64,000 nt of DNA, from sequence record PQ480333.1. The stretch is one strand, 5' to 3'. This document shows, in pieces, positions 5,641 through 55,124 of the stretch (its first letter is position 1; every line of letters begins with the position of its first letter). The translations under genes were made by a program, and so were the position numbers. The DNA comes from Escherichia phage NRG-P0074. The notes below the pieces were generated by a model. It saw only the letters and a list, made by a program, of their open reading frames with translations, searched no databases and was not told the origin of the DNA.

Positions 5641-7211
5641 TAAAAATCCTCTTGTTCTTGGTCGGGGTCTTGGAAACGAGCCTCTTTCGACTCTTCTTCA
5701 ATTTGCTTAGCCTCTTGTTCAATTTCCTCGTCAGACATCTGAAGAATATCTTTCATAGCTGTTCTGTGAGAAATATATTTACCAATAAATGGTTCGGCCA
5801 TCTGAAGCATATTAATGCGACGCTCCAGAATCTCAGCATCCTTTAATTCCGAGAAATAACTATCCCGATGAAATTTTATCTTAATATTATTTATTTCAAC
5901 ATTCCACTCATCTTCTGTAATAATTCCTTTAAGAATTAAATTAGTTTTAAGCGGGTCTAGGAATATCTCTTCAAATTTATGTTGCAGCTCACGAATAAAT
6001 TTACCAAATGACAATTCATCTCGTGTAATAGAAGTACCAGCATCAAACTGTATACCACCTTGGTCACTTGGAATACGGGTAATAGGAATACGTAAAGCCA
6101 TATAAAGCGCATTACGGAACCAACGTACATCTTCCATATTTCCGGTATTATCTGCACCTGGTAATGTATCAACTTCTGTTACTGCTTTACCGTCACGTCG
6201 TTGTAACCAATAATCCTCGGTCATCGACATAATATGCTGCTGGTTTTTAATCTTGCCTGTAGTAGCATCATATGCAATACGGTTTTTCATCGTATTCATA
6301 ACATGTTGCATATGTTCTGCTGCTTTTCTTGAAGGCATATTACCTGTATCAACGTACCATACACGACGATCAGGAGCACGAGTAATACGATAAATTACGA
6401 CGGCATCTTCAAGAAGTTTTAATTGGTTCGCTGGCTTAATAGCCCGATGCAAATAACCGATGATATTTTTACCACAACAATCAACTAAACCAGAATGGGC
6501 GTAAACAATCGCGGCTTTAGGGATTTTTATTTTTGTGCCCGCTTCATATATGCGACCATCACAAGCATAAGATTCGTGTGATGTGTCATAAATGAAATAT
6601 TCTTTATAACCCTTGACTATTTTAACGCCGGCTTCAGTGGTTGTAATAACTTCACGGACATATTGAACTTGACGTGGGTCTAAACGACGAAGCTCTTTAA
6701 TACCTTCTTTAGGACGTTTAGGGTCAATAATTTTATGGAAGAAAATTCGAGAATCTACATACCAACGCCTAAAATGGTCTGAACCTTTACGTTGGAAAGA
6801 TAAATGATTCAACACTTCGTTAAATTCATCCAACATCATTGATTTTATATTTGGACTAAATTTTGTGTTGTCTAAATTTATAGAAACGACTTCTGTATCA
6901 TCTTCATATACGATAGCATCGGAAACTATTTCAGAGACTGCATTATCCACTTCATAGTTCGTCATCAAATTTCGATACGTATCGATTAATTCACGGGTTG
7001 ATTTGAGCCCTGGTTCTTGACTACCGAACATTCTCTGAAACATAGCATTATATGTTTGCTGTGCTTCATTTTCAGATACTTCGTATTCTTTAGCACCGTC
7101 GTCTAATTTTGGTGCGGTGATAGATTCTAAATTTTCTTTTTCTTGGTCTTTGTAATCACGTTCGTCCATTTTTGCCCATGGAGCAAACAAACTTAAGATA
7201 TTAAATTTCAT
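5640..7211 (-). CDS. 20: Portal vertex protein gp20
   Basis: 523 aa; size, order and sequence character match T4 gp20. Confidence 0.9.
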
Positions 7212-50448: not shown

Positions 50449-50736
50449 ATGGATTTTATGCAAAAAATTAAAGCCGCAGTCGAACTGTATGCTCATCGTA
50501 TGGTTAGTTCTACGATGCAATATAGCGAGGAGGTTCGCCAGGACTCTTCCTTGAAAGGAAAAACTAAAGCCTTAATTACCTTAGACCGTCTACAAAAGAA
50601 TGCCCTAGAGTTGTTCCAGTACGACAAGGATGCATATAAGAAAGAACAGGAAGAGAAACTTAAATCTGAAAAATTACAAAAAATACCGAAGTCTGTTTGG
50701 TTCAGTGGAAAAAATACCGAAAAAAGTTTCTTTTAG
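50449..50736 (+). CDS. Hypothetical protein (95 aa)
   Basis: Ribosome-binding site AAGAGGA 6 nt upstream. Confidence 0.4.
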   Translation: MDFMQKIKAAVELYAHRMVSSTMQYSEEVRQDSSLKGKTKALITLDRLQKNALELFQYDKDAYKKEQEEKLKSEKLQKIPKSVWFSGKNTEKSFF

Positions 50737-50738
50737 TT

Positions 50739-50774
50739 GTTTACACAGGTCTATGGACATGTTACTATAGACCT
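50739..50774 (+). promoter_or_regulatory. PeSL-like early promoter
   Basis: gtttac; arms aggtctat / atagacct around gttactat. Confidence 0.5.
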
Positions 50775-50795
50775 ATCAACTACTAGAGGTAAAAC

Positions 50796-51320
50796 ATGAA
50801 CGCTAAAGATATTTTCAACCTGGTAAATTACAATGACGGTAAATTCAAATCTGAAGCACAAAGCAAGTTCTTTAATGAAGTAGCATGCGGTAACGAGATT
50901 ACCGTTTCTGGAGGAGAGATTTACAAAAGCCGTTGGAACTGGATTGTTATCATCGATTCAGTCGGGATTTTGGAAGTCTATAAAAACACTAACAAAAAAC
51001 GTACTCTTCACTGGAGTCGTGCTACAAACGCAGAGTATCAGGCAAAACGTAAAGCACGTAACATGCCTACTGAGTCTGATATCCAAAACATTAAATCAGA
51101 TATCGAATACTACAACAATCTGATTGCAGAACAACAAGCAGTTATTGACAAGTTCGACGAAATCAAAGCTTGTCGTGAGATTCCTGATTTTATGAAGGAA
51201 TCGGTAAACGAACAATATGCCCTCACTTCAGGTCGTATTAAAACTTATACGGAACAACGAGCAGAACGCCAAGCACTTCTTCGGAAATTTGAAGAACGTT
51301 TAAAGACGGTTCACGCATAA
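50796..51320 (+). CDS. Hypothetical protein (174 aa)
   Basis: Ribosome-binding site AGAGG. Confidence 0.45.
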   Translation: MNAKDIFNLVNYNDGKFKSEAQSKFFNEVACGNEITVSGGEIYKSRWNWIVIIDSVGILEVYKNTNKKRTLHWSRATNAEYQAKRKARNMPTESDIQNIKSDIEYYNNLIAEQQAVIDKFDEIKACREIPDFMKESVNEQYALTSGRIKTYTEQRAERQALLRKFEERLKTVHA

Positions 51321-51382
51321 ACGCTTTACCCAAGGACGGGTTATAATGGTTTTGAGTTCCAATTCAATCTGAGGAAATAGTT

Positions 51383-52378
51383 ATGAGCATTACATCTGAT
51401 GCGGTAAAACATGAAATTAACGGTTTATGTGCTTCACAGATTAAAGTGTGGTTTAAAGACCATAATGATCGCAGAGCACTTAATTATGAACAAATTGCTA
51501 TCCAAGTTCATCAATTACTGGTTAGTAAATTTGATTTTCATATGCCGTCTGAAATCTATACTAATCTACCGCGAGCGCTTATTAAAGCATGTAAAGGTTA
51601 CGGAAAATCAATGGCCGATGGAATCTTCAGCGCGCTGAATAAACTTAACGTTCTGTCGATGATTAACTCTAACAATATCCTGCGTAATTTAGGACGTACT
51701 GATTTGTTCGGTCGTGAACAGGGTAAAATGCCTTTGAAATGGATTGTTGCTCATCTTAACGAGAACCAAACACGTTTTCTGGCCGTATCAGCACGTTTAC
51801 AAATGGGCTTAGATCGTCAGATGAACTTTAAAACTCATCCACGTTATTCAGGTTCAACAGACTTTTATAAATGTGAGCTTCAAAAGGTCAGTGGCAAAAC
51901 CGTCTTAGTAGTTCGTGTAACGTTTGAAGGACGACGTCAAGGATATTTTAACCTAATCGGCTCTGGTCTTAAACATTGTGGATTTATCGACGAAGTTGAT
52001 ATCAAGCGAGACGGCACTGGATATCGTATTGGATATGTTTGTACTCTTAAAGAAGAGATTTTAGGACCAGCTCCAGGACTAAAAGACGTTAGATATAAAG
52101 ACGAGCTCGTTGAAGAAATAAAAGAAGTTGAATATGATATCAACCAAGAAGATGCTCTTAAAGACCTTATTGATGAACTGAATCAAGACGTTATTCCGGT
52201 TCAGAAATTTGAATCAAAACATGCTGAGCAAATCAAATACTTTGAAGCTTTGATTAACGAACTTAATGTAACTATTCAACAGACTGACGATGAAATCTCA
52301 CGATTAGCAGGCTTAAACGGTAAAAATAAAACAGAACGAGCTAATCTTATTCAAGTAGTAAAACTTCTTAAGGAATGA
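51383..52378 (+). CDS. Hypothetical protein (331 aa) with C-terminal coiled coil
   Basis: First of three tandem similarly sized ORFs; C-terminal heptad-like region. Confidence 0.5.
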   Translation: MSITSDAVKHEINGLCASQIKVWFKDHNDRRALNYEQIAIQVHQLLVSKFDFHMPSEIYTNLPRALIKACKGYGKSMADGIFSALNKLNVLSMINSNNILRNLGRTDLFGREQGKMPLKWIVAHLNENQTRFLAVSARLQMGLDRQMNFKTHPRYSGSTDFYKCELQKVSGKTVLVVRVTFEGRRQGYFNLIGSGLKHCGFIDEVDIKRDGTGYRIGYVCTLKEEILGPAPGLKDVRYKDELVEEIKEVEYDINQEDALKDLIDELNQDVIPVQKFESKHAEQIKYFEALINELNVTIQQTDDEISRLAGLNGKNKTERANLIQVVKLLKE

Positions 52379-52408
52379 TGTACAACCAAGGATGGTTGGA
52401 GTATAATA
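52378..52408 (+). promoter_or_regulatory. Early promoter cassette caaccaaggatggttggagtataat (copy 1)
   Basis: Inverted repeat caacca / tggttg followed by gaGTATAAT. Confidence 0.5.
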
Positions 52409-52433
52409 AATTTTTCAACATGAGGAATATAAA

Positions 52434-53393
52434 ATGGCTTTTATTACACGTAGAGAACTTATCAAAGAATTTACCTCGAACGCATATACTCCAGGACCTA
52501 ATCCTATCCGTATGCCTGTAAAGACTCCTGAAGAGATTGAGGAAATCTGTTCATATTATGGGATTACTTCTCGTAAGTTTACTCAATTTGAATGCGTTAC
52601 TAACACACCCGTTAAAGAGTTCATTAAAAATGGTGAGTTCAGCCGTTTATTAGCCAAACAGAAACTTCGTAATTTTTGTATTGGTGGTGAAGGACAATAT
52701 TTCGCTAAGCAGTTCCGGAATAACCTTAACAATCTGATGGCCATTGCTTCTCGTATTCGTCCTCAAGCAATTAACATGAAACATTTGAAATATACTTACG
52801 ATAAGTTAGAAATCATGGTTATCAGTGAGAACGAGTTCACTCTTACGTATAAACCTAAGAATGATAACGTTGCTCGTGTATTCCACCAAGCGTTGGAAGT
52901 TTTAGGTGATAATATCCACCAGATTAAAGCAATTTATTCTCGTGAGCTTAATATTATCGACCCTATCAAGAATAAGGGCCATATCGCTATCCAGGCTCGT
53001 GTATCTATTGGTAAAAAGGTTCCTGCGCCATGGTGGCACAAAGACTCTGAATACTATCAAAATCTTAAAAAGGAAAATGCATTGTTTGAAGCATCGCTTA
53101 CTGGGACCCCAATTGAACAGGCCGAAGTCCTAAGTGCTTATTCTACTTCGGGTAAATCAATGTTTAAAGGTTTGCCAAATGTGTGCAAACTGTCTGCAGT
53201 AAAACTAAATGTTTCTAATGACCTTCTTCCGGCCGAAGATTACCGTTACAATCAAATCAAGGCCACTATGGACCAACTGTCTGTTGAACTTGACAAAGCA
53301 CAAGCTAAGCTTCGTGATGCTCAAAGTGTTGTAACGAATCTCCAGTTGCAGTATTCTAAACTTTTTAACGCAATGAATGCGTTAAAATCATAA
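52434..53393 (+). CDS. Hypothetical protein (319 aa) with C-terminal coiled coil
   Basis: Ribosome-binding site GAGGAA. Confidence 0.5.
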   Translation: MAFITRRELIKEFTSNAYTPGPNPIRMPVKTPEEIEEICSYYGITSRKFTQFECVTNTPVKEFIKNGEFSRLLAKQKLRNFCIGGEGQYFAKQFRNNLNNLMAIASRIRPQAINMKHLKYTYDKLEIMVISENEFTLTYKPKNDNVARVFHQALEVLGDNIHQIKAIYSRELNIIDPIKNKGHIAIQARVSIGKKVPAPWWHKDSEYYQNLKKENALFEASLTGTPIEQAEVLSAYSTSGKSMFKGLPNVCKLSAVKLNVSNDLLPAEDYRYNQIKATMDQLSVELDKAQAKLRDAQSVVTNLQLQYSKLFNAMNALKS

Positions 53394-53397
53394 AATA

Positions 53398-53428
53398 GTT
53401 TACAACCAAGGATGGTTGGAGTATAATG
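53398..53428 (+). promoter_or_regulatory. Early promoter cassette caaccaaggatggttggagtataat (copy 2)
   Basis: About 30 bp identical to the cassette at 52381. Confidence 0.5.
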
Positions 53429-53455
53429 AATCTATCTTAACGAGAGGAAAATATT

Positions 53456-54406
53456 ATGACACGTTCACATTACATTGAATACTTTGCAGGTCTTATCGCT
53501 AACGTTCATGCCCAACGTGCTTCTGGTGCACTAGGATTTGATGTTCCACACCGAGATGTAGTAAGTGGTATTCTTCGCGATTTTGGTACATACATAGGCC
53601 AAGAAAATCATATCTGTAAAGATACTCAAAATGCGTATTCTCATTCGTTAGGGACGTTGCTTCAATGGTTCAAACGTTCTCGTTTATTATCTTCTACTGT
53701 AGCTCGCGATAACATTAAAAACTTTATGAAGCCGAGCTTTATTAAATCTGTGACATCTAAAACCGATTTGGTTGAATTCACTATTGTTAATGATGTTAAA
53801 AAGACTCATTTGGCTGATTGGTTAACTACCATTCCTGAAACTAAATTTGCTGATAAATTTGCTTGTGAATTCAATAACCAAGTGAATATGCTTTTTAAAC
53901 ATTCTCGTAAATTATTCACAGGCGGCGATGATCGTACAAATACAGTTCATGCTAAAGATTGGGTTACTGCAGTGTTCAAACCAACCGGTAATGGTACCGC
54001 ATCATTATCAATTGATATTCAGGTTCCTTATTATTACTCACGTAATCTCGGCACCATGAAAGCTGAAGAAATTAAGAAGCACAATAAAACCATTCGTTCG
54101 CTGTCTTATAAACTTCGCATGATGTTAAGAATCATGGACGTGGTAGAAATGTATGATGAAACCGAAGATAATGGTTCAATGTTATACAGTTCTCGCATTC
54201 AAATTAAGTTGAAGAACCCTAACGAGTATAAGCCTAAGCCTATTAAAGAGCCTAAAGCAGAAAAAGTTGATAACTTAAGAGAAGAACGCGAATATCTCAA
54301 ATCTCGTCTGAAAGAAGTCGAAGCCCAGATTGCAGAACAAACTAAATCGTTAAAAGCTCTGAATGCGAAAGCGGATGGTTTACGAAATGCCATTGAGGTG
54401 TTATAA
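53456..54406 (+). CDS. Hypothetical protein (316 aa) with C-terminal coiled coil
   Basis: Ribosome-binding site GAGAGGAAAA. Confidence 0.5.
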   Translation: MTRSHYIEYFAGLIANVHAQRASGALGFDVPHRDVVSGILRDFGTYIGQENHICKDTQNAYSHSLGTLLQWFKRSRLLSSTVARDNIKNFMKPSFIKSVTSKTDLVEFTIVNDVKKTHLADWLTTIPETKFADKFACEFNNQVNMLFKHSRKLFTGGDDRTNTVHAKDWVTAVFKPTGNGTASLSIDIQVPYYYSRNLGTMKAEEIKKHNKTIRSLSYKLRMMLRIMDVVEMYDETEDNGSMLYSSRIQIKLKNPNEYKPKPIKEPKAEKVDNLREEREYLKSRLKEVEAQIAEQTKSLKALNAKADGLRNAIEVL

Positions 54407-54711
54407 TGAAACTACGCCTTTTAGAGGATATTGATATGAGCACTAATCACCGCTTGGTTAAGTTTATTGACAATAGTTCAAAGATTGAATTTGTTCAGCG
54501 AGATAAAATCCACGGTGAAGAAGAGTTCGTTCCTCCGGCATGGAACGAAATAATGAAAATGGTTGAACGACGTGAAAATGCTGCCAAATCGGCAGCAAAA
54601 CATCCATGCCCGGAATGTGGAACTATCCAAGTCCAACTGGTTAACTGGACCACTGATAACTTGAAATTGAAATGCCGTAAATGCTTCCACAAATTTGAGA
54701 GAACATTATAA
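54406..54711 (+). CDS. Zinc-ribbon protein (101 aa)
   Basis: CPEC ... CRKC pair. Confidence 0.45.
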   Translation: MKLRLLEDIDMSTNHRLVKFIDNSSKIEFVQRDKIHGEEEFVPPAWNEIMKMVERRENAAKSAAKHPCPECGTIQVQLVNWTTDNLKLKCRKCFHKFERTL

Positions 54712-55124
54712 TGAGATATAGCCTTCGTTGTTTTATTGCAGCTTTAGTTTTTGCCATCATTCCATTCATTTGGAACAGCCAGAATACTTACATGGAAACT
54801 AAAGTAATTCCTGTGGAGGTAGTGGAATTAATTTCAGGTCAATCTACAGGAAAATATTCTAAATTAGAATTTATTGCAGTCTATAAAGATGAGCAAGGAC
54901 GAGTTTTTGACAGGCATGTATCACCTTCGTTTTATACGCTTCTGAATAAAGGTGATACGATAGCTATAGAAATTCGTGAGATGGATATCAAACAAACTAC
55001 TAAAGATAACCTGATTTGGTTCTTTGGTACAGTGTTGTTGGTTTCTATCTGTATCACAGGTTTTATTACATGTATTGTATTTGGCATTGCATATTTAATC
55101 GATGAAAGGAAAAATAATGTTTAA
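54711..55124 (+). CDS. Membrane protein (137 aa)
   Basis: N- and C-terminal hydrophobic helices. Confidence 0.45.
   Translation: MRYSLRCFIAALVFAIIPFIWNSQNTYMETKVIPVEVVELISGQSTGKYSKLEFIAVYKDEQGRVFDRHVSPSFYTLLNKGDTIAIEIREMDIKQTTKDNLIWFFGTVLLVSICITGFITCIVFGIAYLIDERKNNV

What the first reader, a model, noticed from the sequence alone, without database searches (positions are those of the whole stretch)
51383..54406. Three tandem ~320-aa proteins with C-terminal coiled coils, each behind its own promoter cassette
ORFs of 331, 319 and 316 aa lie head-to-tail. Each has a ~260-aa N-terminal region followed by a ~50-aa heptad-like coiled coil, and the second and third are preceded by the identical promoter cassette caaccaaggatggttggagtataat. 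By eye the N-terminal regions are not obviously similar, which would fit highly diverged paralogs or cassette-wise replacement of different cargo at repeated promoter sites. The array architecture is reminiscent of diversified effector or immunity families.
Basis: inference. Interest (0 to 1): 0.5.

Follow-up and report, generated by a model that had tools for sequence, protein, structure and literature searches.

The report
Diverged anti-defence paralog array in T4-like phage
Three neighbouring early genes of a T4-like phage are very old copies of one gene family, one member of which is known to switch off a bacterial immune protein; two identical promoter cassettes in the array let a whole gene be gained or lost.

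Summary
ORFs of 331, 319 and 316 aa lie head to tail, and an exact 25-mer (27 nt in all) precedes ORF2 and ORF3. ORF1 has only a related cassette with an 11-nt spacer, which is not a canonical promoter. The window is a Mosigvirus (RB69-like). The genes are homologues of T4 nrdC.6, nrdC.5 (Pfam DUF7235) and nrdC.3. BLASTP sees no similarity among them. Profile searches, a colinear merged alignment and bridging proteins show one Straboviridae-restricted superfamily, which also includes T4 nrdC.4. Only 31 representatives were found among 1.84 billion proteins. Each protein has a helical N-domain, a small alpha/beta domain, a disordered linker and a C-terminal coiled coil. The coiled coil is strong in ORF2 and ORF3 and weaker in ORF1. 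No solved fold matches. T4 NrdC.5 is published as counteracting the Dsr1 defence, and neighbouring genes counter Druantia III, Septu and OLD. The array is therefore most likely a set of diversified anti-defence proteins. This function is inferred, not shown, for these three genes. The cassette carries a covarying hairpin with an AAGGAY loop in the promoter spacer. Phage AV115 lacks exactly the ORF2 unit between the two identical cassettes. This is a known gene neighbourhood with a new unifying reading.

The parts
50796..51320 (+). Upstream neighbour: nrdC.8 homologue (174 aa, Pfam PF26901 family). Context for the anti-defence island.
   Evidence: 73% identical to bas37_0203 of phage KarlGJung. 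A preprint reports bas37_0203 as an inhibitor of Druantia type III. phrog_2274.
51325..51347 (+). Cassette 1: TTTACC, hairpin ACCC-AAGGAC-GGGT (51328-51341), TATAAT (51342-51347). The spacer is only 11 nt, so this is not a canonical sigma-70 promoter.
   Evidence: Sequence. Not listed by the promoter scan. One of only three AAGGAY sites in the window with perfect 4-bp flanking stems.
51383..52378 (+). ORF1, 331 aa: NrdC.6-family protein (Pfam PF26899 Phage_T4_Y05B; phrog_2257).
   Evidence: phmmer E=1.4e-20 to T4 nrdC.6 and 2e-34 to the 295-aa T-even versions. Homologues carry PF26899. AF2 model has pLDDT 71: helical domain 1-141, alpha/beta 162-221, disordered 224-277, helix 281-330.
52223..52372 (+). 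ORF1 C-terminal long helix (aa 281-330). The heptad pattern is imperfect.
   Evidence: AF2 helix H281-330, pLDDT 70-81. Heptad score p about 0.1.
52379..52407 (+). Cassette 2: -35-like TGTACA, hairpin CAACC-AAGGAT-GGTTG (52383-52398), GGAG, -10 TATAAT (52402-52407).
52434..53393 (+). ORF2, 319 aa: NrdC.5-family protein (Pfam DUF7235).
   Evidence: DUF7235 full length, E=3.4e-123, 411 bits against a cut-off of 30. T4 NrdC.5 hits the same model at 420 bits. 29-30% identity to T4-type NrdC.5.
53232..53387 (+). ORF2 C-terminal coiled coil (aa 267-318).
   Evidence: 12/12 a/d positions hydrophobic, 0/200 shuffles as good. AF2 helix 267-318, pLDDT 77-90.
53399..53427 (+). Cassette 3: -35 TTTACA, hairpin CAACC-AAGGAT-GGTTG (53403-53418), GGAG, -10 TATAAT (53422-53427). 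Identical over 27 nt to cassette 2.
   Evidence: A promoter is annotated at the equivalent place in phage NBG1.
53456..54406 (+). ORF3, 316 aa: NrdC.3-family protein (Pfam PF26897 Phage_T4_Y04OP, which also covers T4 nrdC.4).
   Evidence: 57% identical to T4 nrdC.3 and 25% to T4 nrdC.4 over the full length. Homologues carry PF26897. phrog_1435.
54263..54403 (+). ORF3 C-terminal coiled coil (aa 270-316).
   Evidence: 10/12 a/d positions hydrophobic, 0/200 shuffles as good. Regular 3-4 spacing is visible in the sequence.

Best explanation
The three genes are anciently diverged tandem paralogues of one protein superfamily restricted to T4-like phages (Straboviridae). In T4 the superfamily is represented by nrdC.6, nrdC.5, nrdC.4 and nrdC.3.

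Each member shares the same layout:
- a variable helical N-terminal domain that carries two conserved helix motifs;
- a small alpha/beta domain;
- a disordered linker that ends in a conserved Pro-x-x-Glu segment;
- a C-terminal coiled-coil helix.

The genes sit in the early-expressed hyperplastic region between nrdC.10 and nrdC, where several anti-defence genes have been mapped experimentally.

Most likely mechanism (inferred): the proteins are made early in infection and oligomerise through the coiled coil. Their diversified N-terminal modules bind and neutralise different host immune proteins. The published case is T4 NrdC.5 acting against the SIR2-type Dsr1 system. Paralogue number and identity vary between phages as part of the arms race.

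ORF2 and ORF3 each have their own early promoter. Because these two cassettes are identical over 27 nt, homologous recombination between them can excise or insert the ORF2 unit, as phage AV115 shows.

What is shown: gene identities, superfamily membership, architecture, synteny and the indel. What is inferred: anti-defence function for ORF1 and ORF3, conservation of the Dsr1 target for ORF2, and oligomerisation.
For: Identity. The window is 98-99% identical to Mosigvirus genomes. ORF1, ORF2 and ORF3 correspond to nrdC.6, nrdC.5 and nrdC.3.

Superfamily.
- hhalign gives nrdC.4-nrdC.3 E=4e-6 over 241 columns, nrdC.5-nrdC.3 E=3.5e-4 over 229 colinear columns, nrdC.5-nrdC.4 E=1.5e-3, and nrdC.6-nrdC.5 E=5.7e-3, the last on the two conserved N-terminal motifs.
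- With the last 75 aa removed, the nrdC.5 profile still ranks nearly all members of the other three families above 233 unrelated ORFs.
- The merged alignment is colinear.
- A profile of that alignment retrieves only 31 representatives at E<=1e-3 from 1.84 billion. All named members are Straboviridae proteins of about 285-355 aa.
- With the coiled coil removed, bridging proteins are hit by several family profiles. P0221 scores 8e-8 with the nrdC.6 profile and 8e-5 with nrdC.5. P0233 scores 2e-9 with nrdC.5, 9e-4 with nrdC.3 and 1e-3 with nrdC.6.
- Foldseek with the ORF1 model finds full-length matches (E 1e-7 to 1e-4, 11-16% identity) to uncharacterised proteins of about 300-375 aa from other T4-like phages. 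One of them, fHe-Yen9-01 gp111, is closest by sequence to the nrdC.5 profile.

Synteny. The same gene order occurs in T4, Bas45, Bas37, JS10, VR7 and a metagenome contig. A single copy sits at the same place in Moon, EcS1, Kpn 17-11 and X20.

Function.
- T4 nrdC.5 restores infection of cells carrying Dsr1 (PMC9391042).
- The nrdC.8 homologue inhibits Druantia III and nrdC.1 inhibits Septu (bioRxiv 10.1101/2025.11.20.689424).
- gp49.2 inhibits OLD (PMC13096335).

Cassette recombination. AV115 carries one chimeric cassette and no ORF2.
Against: - No experiment bears on these three proteins or on T4 nrdC.3, nrdC.4 or nrdC.6.
- ORF2 is only about 25-30% identical to T4 NrdC.5 and has a different N-terminus, so the Dsr1 target may not be conserved.
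- Individual cross-family E-values are marginal (1e-3 to 1e-2). The case rests on consistency, colinearity and bridging sequences.
- A direct fold comparison of all three proteins was not possible. The ORF2 model was poor (pLDDT 45) and ORF3 was not modelled.
- The ORF1 coiled coil is weak.
- Oligomerisation was not tested.
Confidence: 0.6

Rival explanations
1. The three genes are unrelated cargo that was slotted independently behind repeated promoter cassettes (PeSL-like modular shuffling). The shared C-terminal coiled coil is convergent or compositional.
For: BLASTP finds nothing between the three proteins. Cassette-mediated gain or loss of ORF2 is real. DNA homology to Tequatrovirus stops at the ORF1 start codon, where T4 has nrdC.7 instead. 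PeSL-mediated shuffling is documented in T4-like hyperplastic regions (PMC2839356, PMC4122927).
Against: Homology signals persist after the coiled coil is removed. They map to the same two N-terminal motifs in the same order. Bridging proteins link the families. The gene order is conserved across genera.
Confidence: 0.1
2. The proteins are diverged paralogues but not anti-defence factors. They would be early host-takeover or regulatory proteins, for example coiled-coil adaptors acting on host transcription, nucleoid or nucleotide metabolism. The Dsr1 effect of T4 NrdC.5 would then be indirect.
For: The genes are early and non-essential, like many T4 host-takeover genes. The Dsr1 result is a single overexpression rescue. 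No fold-based clue to a mechanism exists. Many GenBank records label them 'thioredoxin'.
Against: The 'thioredoxin' label is not supported. There is no thioredoxin or any other enzymatic Pfam or NCBIfam hit, and the label is also applied to every neighbouring gene. The variable copy number, rapid divergence and location among three other experimentally mapped anti-defence genes fit counter-defence better.
Confidence: 0.25

Closest known systems
T4 NrdC.5 (Pfam DUF7235, PF23882), reported to counteract the Dsr1 defence of E. coli ECOR17
   Same: ORF2 matches the same Pfam model over its full length (411 bits; T4 NrdC.5 scores 420 bits). It has the same position in the array and the same C-terminal coiled coil ending ...KL.NA.NAL.
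   Different: Only about 25-30% identity. ORF2 has a 29-aa N-terminal extension and lacks two insertions of the T4 protein. In T4, nrdC.5 follows nrdC.6 without a promoter cassette, whereas here it has its own. Activity against Dsr1 is untested.
T4 nrdC.3 / nrdC.4 (Pfam PF26897 Phage_T4_Y04OP) and nrdC.6 (PF26899 Phage_T4_Y05B): uncharacterised early proteins
   Same: ORF3 is 57% identical to nrdC.3. ORF1 is 34-38% identical to nrdC.6 homologues. Gene order is the same.
   Different: The window has no nrdC.4. Its nrdC.7 homologue sits downstream, between nrdC.2 and nrdC, instead of between nrdC.8 and nrdC.6. T4's own nrdC.6 is C-terminally truncated and lacks the terminal helix that ORF1 and other T-even versions have. 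Pfam keeps the three families separate; here they are linked.
PeSLs (promoter-early stem-loops) of T4-like phages (Arbiol 2010; Comeau 2014)
   Same: Short repeated early-promoter cassettes in hyperplastic regions that flank non-essential genes and serve as recombination sites. The AV115 indel is what the PeSL mini-circle model predicts.
   Different: PeSL stem-loops are GC-rich terminators placed upstream of the -35 and its AT-rich region. Here a 4-7-bp hairpin with a constant AAGGAY loop lies inside the -35/-10 spacer.
T-even internal protein (IP) locus
   Same: A variable set of early or injected counter-defence proteins that share one conserved terminal module and have diversified bodies, shuffled between related phages. 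The comparison is partly from my own knowledge; it is also mentioned in PMC4122927 and in the HIDEN-SEQ preprint.
   Different: IPs share an N-terminal capsid-targeting signal and are packaged. These proteins share a C-terminal coiled coil and show no such signal.

Membership tests
DUF7235 / NrdC.5 family (ORF2) | Full-length match to Pfam PF23882 above the gathering score | tested here: met
   411.4 bits against a cut-off of 30, covering residues 15-318 and profile positions 1-307.
DUF7235 / NrdC.5 family (ORF2) | Neutralises the Dsr1 (SIR2) defence | not testable with these tools
   Known only for the T4 protein (PMC9391042).
PF26897 Phage_T4_Y04OP (ORF3) | Homology to T4 nrdC.3/nrdC.4 over the full length | tested here: met
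   57% identity to nrdC.3 and 25% to nrdC.4. All close homologues carry PF26897 in the precomputed table. The model is absent from the local Pfam copy.
PF26899 Phage_T4_Y05B (ORF1) | Homology to T4 nrdC.6 | tested here: met
   phmmer E=1.4e-20. Homologues carry PF26899.
Single NrdC.3-6 superfamily (proposed here) | Significant, colinear profile-level similarity outside the coiled coil | tested here: met
Single NrdC.3-6 superfamily (proposed here) | Shared three-dimensional fold of the N-terminal domains | tested here: inconclusive
   Only ORF1 gave a usable model. It matches other T4-like phage proteins of this size class, one of which is nrdC.5-like by sequence. The ORF2 model was too poor. 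ORF3 was not modelled.
Coiled-coil proteins | Heptad a/d hydrophobic periodicity over at least 5 heptads in a predicted continuous helix | tested here: met
   Met for ORF2 and ORF3 (helix predicted for ORF2). Weak for ORF1 (p about 0.1). The profile matches GCN4 and Spc42. Oligomeric state was not tested.
PeSL (promoter-early stem-loop) | Sigma-70-type early promoter with a spacer of about 17 nt | tested here: met
   Met for cassettes 2 and 3. Cassette 1 has an 11-nt spacer.
PeSL (promoter-early stem-loop) | Stable GC-rich terminator stem-loop upstream of the -35 region | tested here: not met
   The hairpin has 4-5 bp and lies between -35 and -10.
PeSL (promoter-early stem-loop) | Serves as a crossover point for gene indels between close relatives | tested here: met
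   The AV115 junction lies inside the 27-nt repeat.
Thioredoxin (GenBank label on homologues) | Thioredoxin fold and family match | tested here: not met
   No thioredoxin or glutaredoxin hit in Pfam or NCBIfam for any of the three proteins.

The most novel reading that the evidence does not exclude
NrdC.3, NrdC.4, NrdC.5 and NrdC.6 form one coiled-coil-tailed anti-defence superfamily of T4-like phages. A conserved C-terminal oligomerisation or linker module carries interchangeable N-terminal modules, each aimed at a different bacterial immune system. The units are also marked by a previously undescribed promoter-embedded hairpin (covarying stem, AAGGAY loop). That hairpin would act in read-through RNA or as a recombination site to regulate and mobilise single genes.
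Probability: 0.3. Interest if true: 0.7.

Novelty: new member of a known kind. Interest (0 to 1): 0.55.

Why it matters
Only one of the four T4 genes in this array (nrdC.5) has a published function. If all four families are one superfamily, then nrdC.3, nrdC.4, nrdC.6 and their many relatives become ready-made candidates for inhibitors of other bacterial defence systems. The family would also be a natural experiment in how one scaffold is retargeted. The AV115 indel gives a clean natural example of promoter-cassette-mediated gene gain or loss in a T-even phage. The covarying hairpin inside early promoters is a small regulatory element that can be tested directly with compensatory mutations.

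Tried and rejected
- Pairwise BLASTP among the three ORFs found nothing.
- hhalign on thin profiles of 5-9 sequences supported only nrdC.4-nrdC.3. Richer profiles were needed.
- The AlphaFold2 model of ORF2 from 18 sequences was poor (pLDDT 45). Its BFVD search recovered only its own family.
- NCBIfam, PADLOC and Rfam gave nothing meaningful.
- I considered whether nrdC.8 (174 aa) is a truncated member, because it appears among the top 'unrelated' hits (E 0.04-0.07). With the C-terminus removed the signal disappears, so I did not include it.
- P0033 looked like a recombinant between paralogues. It is a microhomology deletion that fuses nrdC.5 residues 146-272 to nrdC.3 residue 143 onward, not a crossover at homologous positions.
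It was usable only after filtering for stems.
- A tblastn attempt to classify those contigs with window proteins was uninformative.
- A 'direct repeat / StbAB' annotation in phage ATK48 lies inside ORF1 and is unrelated to the cassette.
- Literature searches found no paper on nrdC.3, nrdC.4 or nrdC.6 function, or on DUF7235.
Full report
**What is there**

The window comes from a T4-like phage of the genus Mosigvirus. The 3.1-kb region is 98-99% identical to phages BEU50, a20, NBG1 and others. The region lies in the early 'hyperplastic' stretch upstream of nrdC, gene 49 and nrdD.

The 25-mer CAACCAAGGATGGTTGGAGTATAAT occurs exactly twice in 64 kb, in front of ORF2 and ORF3. None occurred in 100 shuffles. 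The identity extends to 27 nt.

**Gene identities**

- ORF1 is a homologue of T4 nrdC.6. phmmer gives E=1.4e-20 to T4 and 2e-34 to the 295-aa versions of other T-evens. Its relatives carry Pfam PF26899.
- ORF2 is a full-length member of Pfam DUF7235 at 411 bits. T4 NrdC.5 belongs to the same family at 420 bits. The two proteins are only about 25-30% identical.
- ORF3 is 57% identical to T4 nrdC.3 and 25% to T4 nrdC.4 over the full length. Pfam puts nrdC.3 and nrdC.4 in one family, PF26897 'Phage_T4_Y04OP'.

T4 has the order nrdC.8-nrdC.7-nrdC.6-nrdC.5-nrdC.4-nrdC.3. The window has nrdC.8-nrdC.6-nrdC.5-nrdC.3, no nrdC.4, and a nrdC.7-like membrane protein displaced to 54711-55124.

**Are the three proteins related?**

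BLASTP says no. By eye, however, all four T4-type families share two motifs: 'F.K...hS..h.A...L.NF' and 'F...F......LLA.ASRL'.

With family profiles built from database homologues, hhalign gives the following:

| Pair | E-value | Columns |
|---|---|---|
| nrdC.4-nrdC.3 | 4e-6 | 241 |
| nrdC.5-nrdC.3 | 3.5e-4 | 229, colinear |
| nrdC.5-nrdC.4 | 1.5e-3 | 126 |
| nrdC.6-nrdC.5 | 5.7e-3 | 63, aligned exactly on those motifs |

To exclude the coiled coil as the source of the signal, I removed the last 75 residues from every sequence. The nrdC.5 N-terminal profile still ranks 5/5 nrdC.4, 105/117 nrdC.6 and 32/41 nrdC.3 proteins above every one of 233 unrelated phage ORFs.

A merged alignment is colinear from the N-terminal 'M(K)TR' through both motifs, an 'F(K/T)P' strand and a conserved 'KPV..E' at the end of the linker, to the C-terminal 'L.NA...LK'.

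A profile of that alignment, searched against 1.84 billion representative proteins, finds only 31 at E<=1e-3. The named ones all come from Straboviridae: Klebsiella, Citrobacter, Salmonella and Escherichia T4-like phages.

Several of these proteins bridge the families even without the coiled coil:
- P0221 is hit by the nrdC.6 profile (8e-8) and the nrdC.5 profile (8e-5).
- P0233 is hit by nrdC.5 (2e-9), nrdC.3 (9e-4) and nrdC.6 (1e-3).

I conclude that the three ORFs are anciently diverged paralogues. Cross-family identity is 13-21%.

**Structure**

AlphaFold2 gave a usable model for ORF1 (pLDDT 71):
- a confident helical domain at residues 1-141, which holds both conserved motifs;
- a beta-beta-alpha-beta-beta unit at 162-221;
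- a disordered linker at 224-277;
- one long helix at 281-330.

ORF2 modelled poorly (pLDDT 45), but it shows the same order of elements and a confident C-terminal helix at 267-318.

Foldseek of the ORF1 model against predicted viral structures returns its own family. It then returns ten uncharacterised proteins of about 300-375 aa from Acinetobacter, Pectobacterium, Enterobacter, Klebsiella, Erwinia and Yersinia T4-like phages (E 1e-7 to 1e-4, 11-16% identity). One of these, fHe-Yen9-01 gp111, is closest by sequence to the nrdC.5 profile.

Heptad analysis supports a coiled coil strongly for ORF2 (12/12 a/d positions hydrophobic) and ORF3 (10/12). In both, 0/200 shuffles do as well. Support is weak for ORF1.

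**Function**

No enzyme or other known domain is detected. The frequent GenBank label 'thioredoxin' is a carry-over from the gene names.

The literature held here gives one direct clue. Expression of T4 nrdC.5 restores infection by a T4 deletion mutant of cells that carry the SIR2-type Dsr1 defence of E. coli ECOR17 (PMC9391042).

The neighbourhood is an anti-defence island:
- bas37_0203 inhibits Druantia type III. I identified it as the nrdC.8 homologue, 73% identical to the ORF at 50796-51320.
- nrdC.1 inhibits Septu.
- gp49.2 inhibits OLD.

I therefore favour the reading that the array encodes diversified counter-defence proteins that oligomerise through the C-terminal helix. This is an inference for ORF1 and ORF3, and for the target of ORF2.

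**The cassettes**

Cassettes 2 and 3 are good sigma-70-type early promoters (TGTACA/TTTACA-17-TATAAT). A promoter is annotated at the second site in phage NBG1.

The element before ORF1 is TTTACC-N11-TATAAT. It has neither a usable -35 nor an extended -10. ORF1 is therefore probably read mainly from the nrdC.8 promoter.

All three cassettes contain a short hairpin with the loop AAGGAY between the TTTAC and TATAAT boxes. The same element precedes nrdC.7, nrdC.4 and nrdC.3 in T4, and the equivalent genes in JS10, VR7 and a metagenomic contig, each with different but complementary stems:
- CAACC/GGTTG
- ACCC/GGGT
- TTATACC/GGTATAA
- CCAC/GTGG
- AGCC/GGCT
- CATCC/GGATG
- CTTCC/GGAGG, with a U.G pair
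- CACC/GGTG

On 11 distinct sequences, 90.9% of cells pair, against 62% in shuffles. Four of five pairs change on both sides, and the covariation score is 0.68 against 0.15 (0/500 shuffles).

Counts of AAGGAY sites with a stem of at least 4 bp:
- In the window, 3 of 58 sites have one (0.23 expected), and all three are in the array.
- In T4 coordinates 1-80 kb, 4 of 87 have one (0.34 expected). Three are in the array and one lies upstream of rIIA.1.

Further instances occur upstream of other genes in Mosigvirus, Tegunavirus and metagenomic contigs. The more distant genera (Moon, EcS1, Kpn 17-11, X20) lack it.

The hairpin lies upstream of the transcription start of its own promoter, so it can be present only in read-through RNA. 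Its role is unexplained. It is not a PeSL as defined by Arbiol and Comeau, whose stem-loops are GC-rich terminators upstream of the -35.

**Gain and loss**

Mosigvirus AV115 aligns to window 50700-52407 and to 53401-54800, with the 27-nt cassette as the overlap. It carries one chimeric cassette and no ORF2. This is the product expected from recombination between the two identical cassettes, or the reverse insertion.

DNA similarity of Tequatrovirus genomes to the nrdC.8 side ends at about the ORF1 start codon. The upstream sequences show that nrdC.8 and its cassette are kept while the downstream gene differs.

**Verdict**

The interpretation 'highly diverged paralogues, reminiscent of effector or immunity families' is supported, and the alternative 'cassette-wise replacement' is also partly true.

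The genes themselves are known T4-type genes. What is new is their unification into one superfamily, the implied candidate function for the uncharacterised members, the promoter-embedded covarying hairpin, and the natural cassette-to-cassette indel.

Noticed in passing
window 51328-51341, 52383-52398, 53403-53418; L001 (T4) upstream of nrdC.7, nrdC.4, nrdC.3; T4 coordinate 2449 (L142): A short hairpin with a constant AAGGAY loop and covarying 4-7-bp stems sits inside the -35/-10 spacer of early-promoter cassettes. At least 8 distinct stems were seen in the nrdC array, and more elsewhere (covariation 0.68 against 0.15 in shuffles). A near-identical 31-nt copy of the T4 nrdC.4 cassette lies upstream of rIIA.1. 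The function is unknown. The hairpin would be transcribed only in read-through RNA.
   Followed up: partly
L020 (Escherichia phage AV115, OR352945.1) 1984-2010, against window 52381-52407 and 53401-53427: AV115 lacks exactly the 1,020-bp ORF2 unit and has one chimeric cassette. This is a natural indel between the two identical 27-nt cassettes.
   Followed up: yes
window 50796-51320: This 174-aa ORF is the nrdC.8 homologue, 73% identical to bas37_0203. A 2025 preprint reports bas37_0203 as an inhibitor of Druantia type III. Its promoter region holds a different inverted repeat (AGGTCTAT...ATAGACCT) that spans the spacer and the -10.
   Followed up: partly
window 54711-55124 and 54406-54711: A nrdC.7-like membrane protein (137 aa) sits between the nrdC.2-like zinc-ribbon protein and nrdC. 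In T4, nrdC.7 lies between nrdC.8 and nrdC.6. No nrdC.1 (the anti-Septu gene of T4) is seen at the T4 position.
   Followed up: no
L001 9070-9894 (T4 nrdC.6) against L006-L009: T4's own nrdC.6 (275 aa) diverges at its C-terminus and lacks the terminal helix present in the 295-aa versions of other T-even phages and in ORF1. This looks like a frameshift or truncation in T4.
   Followed up: no
protein P0033 (299 aa; on contigs up to 167 kb): A natural fusion of nrdC.5 residues 146-272 to nrdC.3 from residue about 143, joined at the microhomology FN(K/DQ)VN. This phage has lost nrdC.4 and parts of both neighbouring genes.
   Followed up: partly
L006 8910-9942 and 9948-9961: In this Tequatrovirus contig, nrdC.4 is split into two ORFs (193 and 158 aa). 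The downstream nrdC.3 cassette has a broken loop-closing pair and a degraded -10 (TACAAA).
   Followed up: no
L086 1328-2440 and L088 (Mosigvirus contigs, outside this window): The same CAACC-AAGGAT-GGTTG cassette, and a CATCC variant, precede two tandem genes of 164 and 165 aa. These genes share a C-terminal 'DQW(V/I)EDG...GDF.VV' motif. This looks like a second small paralogue pair that uses the same promoter cassette.
   Followed up: no
L015 (Moon) 5900-6000; L016/L018 (EcS1, X20) about 5900-6000: In distant genera the single family member is preceded by a different arrangement: long inverted repeats that enclose the TATAAT box (for example GAGAATCCGTG-TTATAATGGTTT-CACGGATTCTC in Moon).
   Followed up: no
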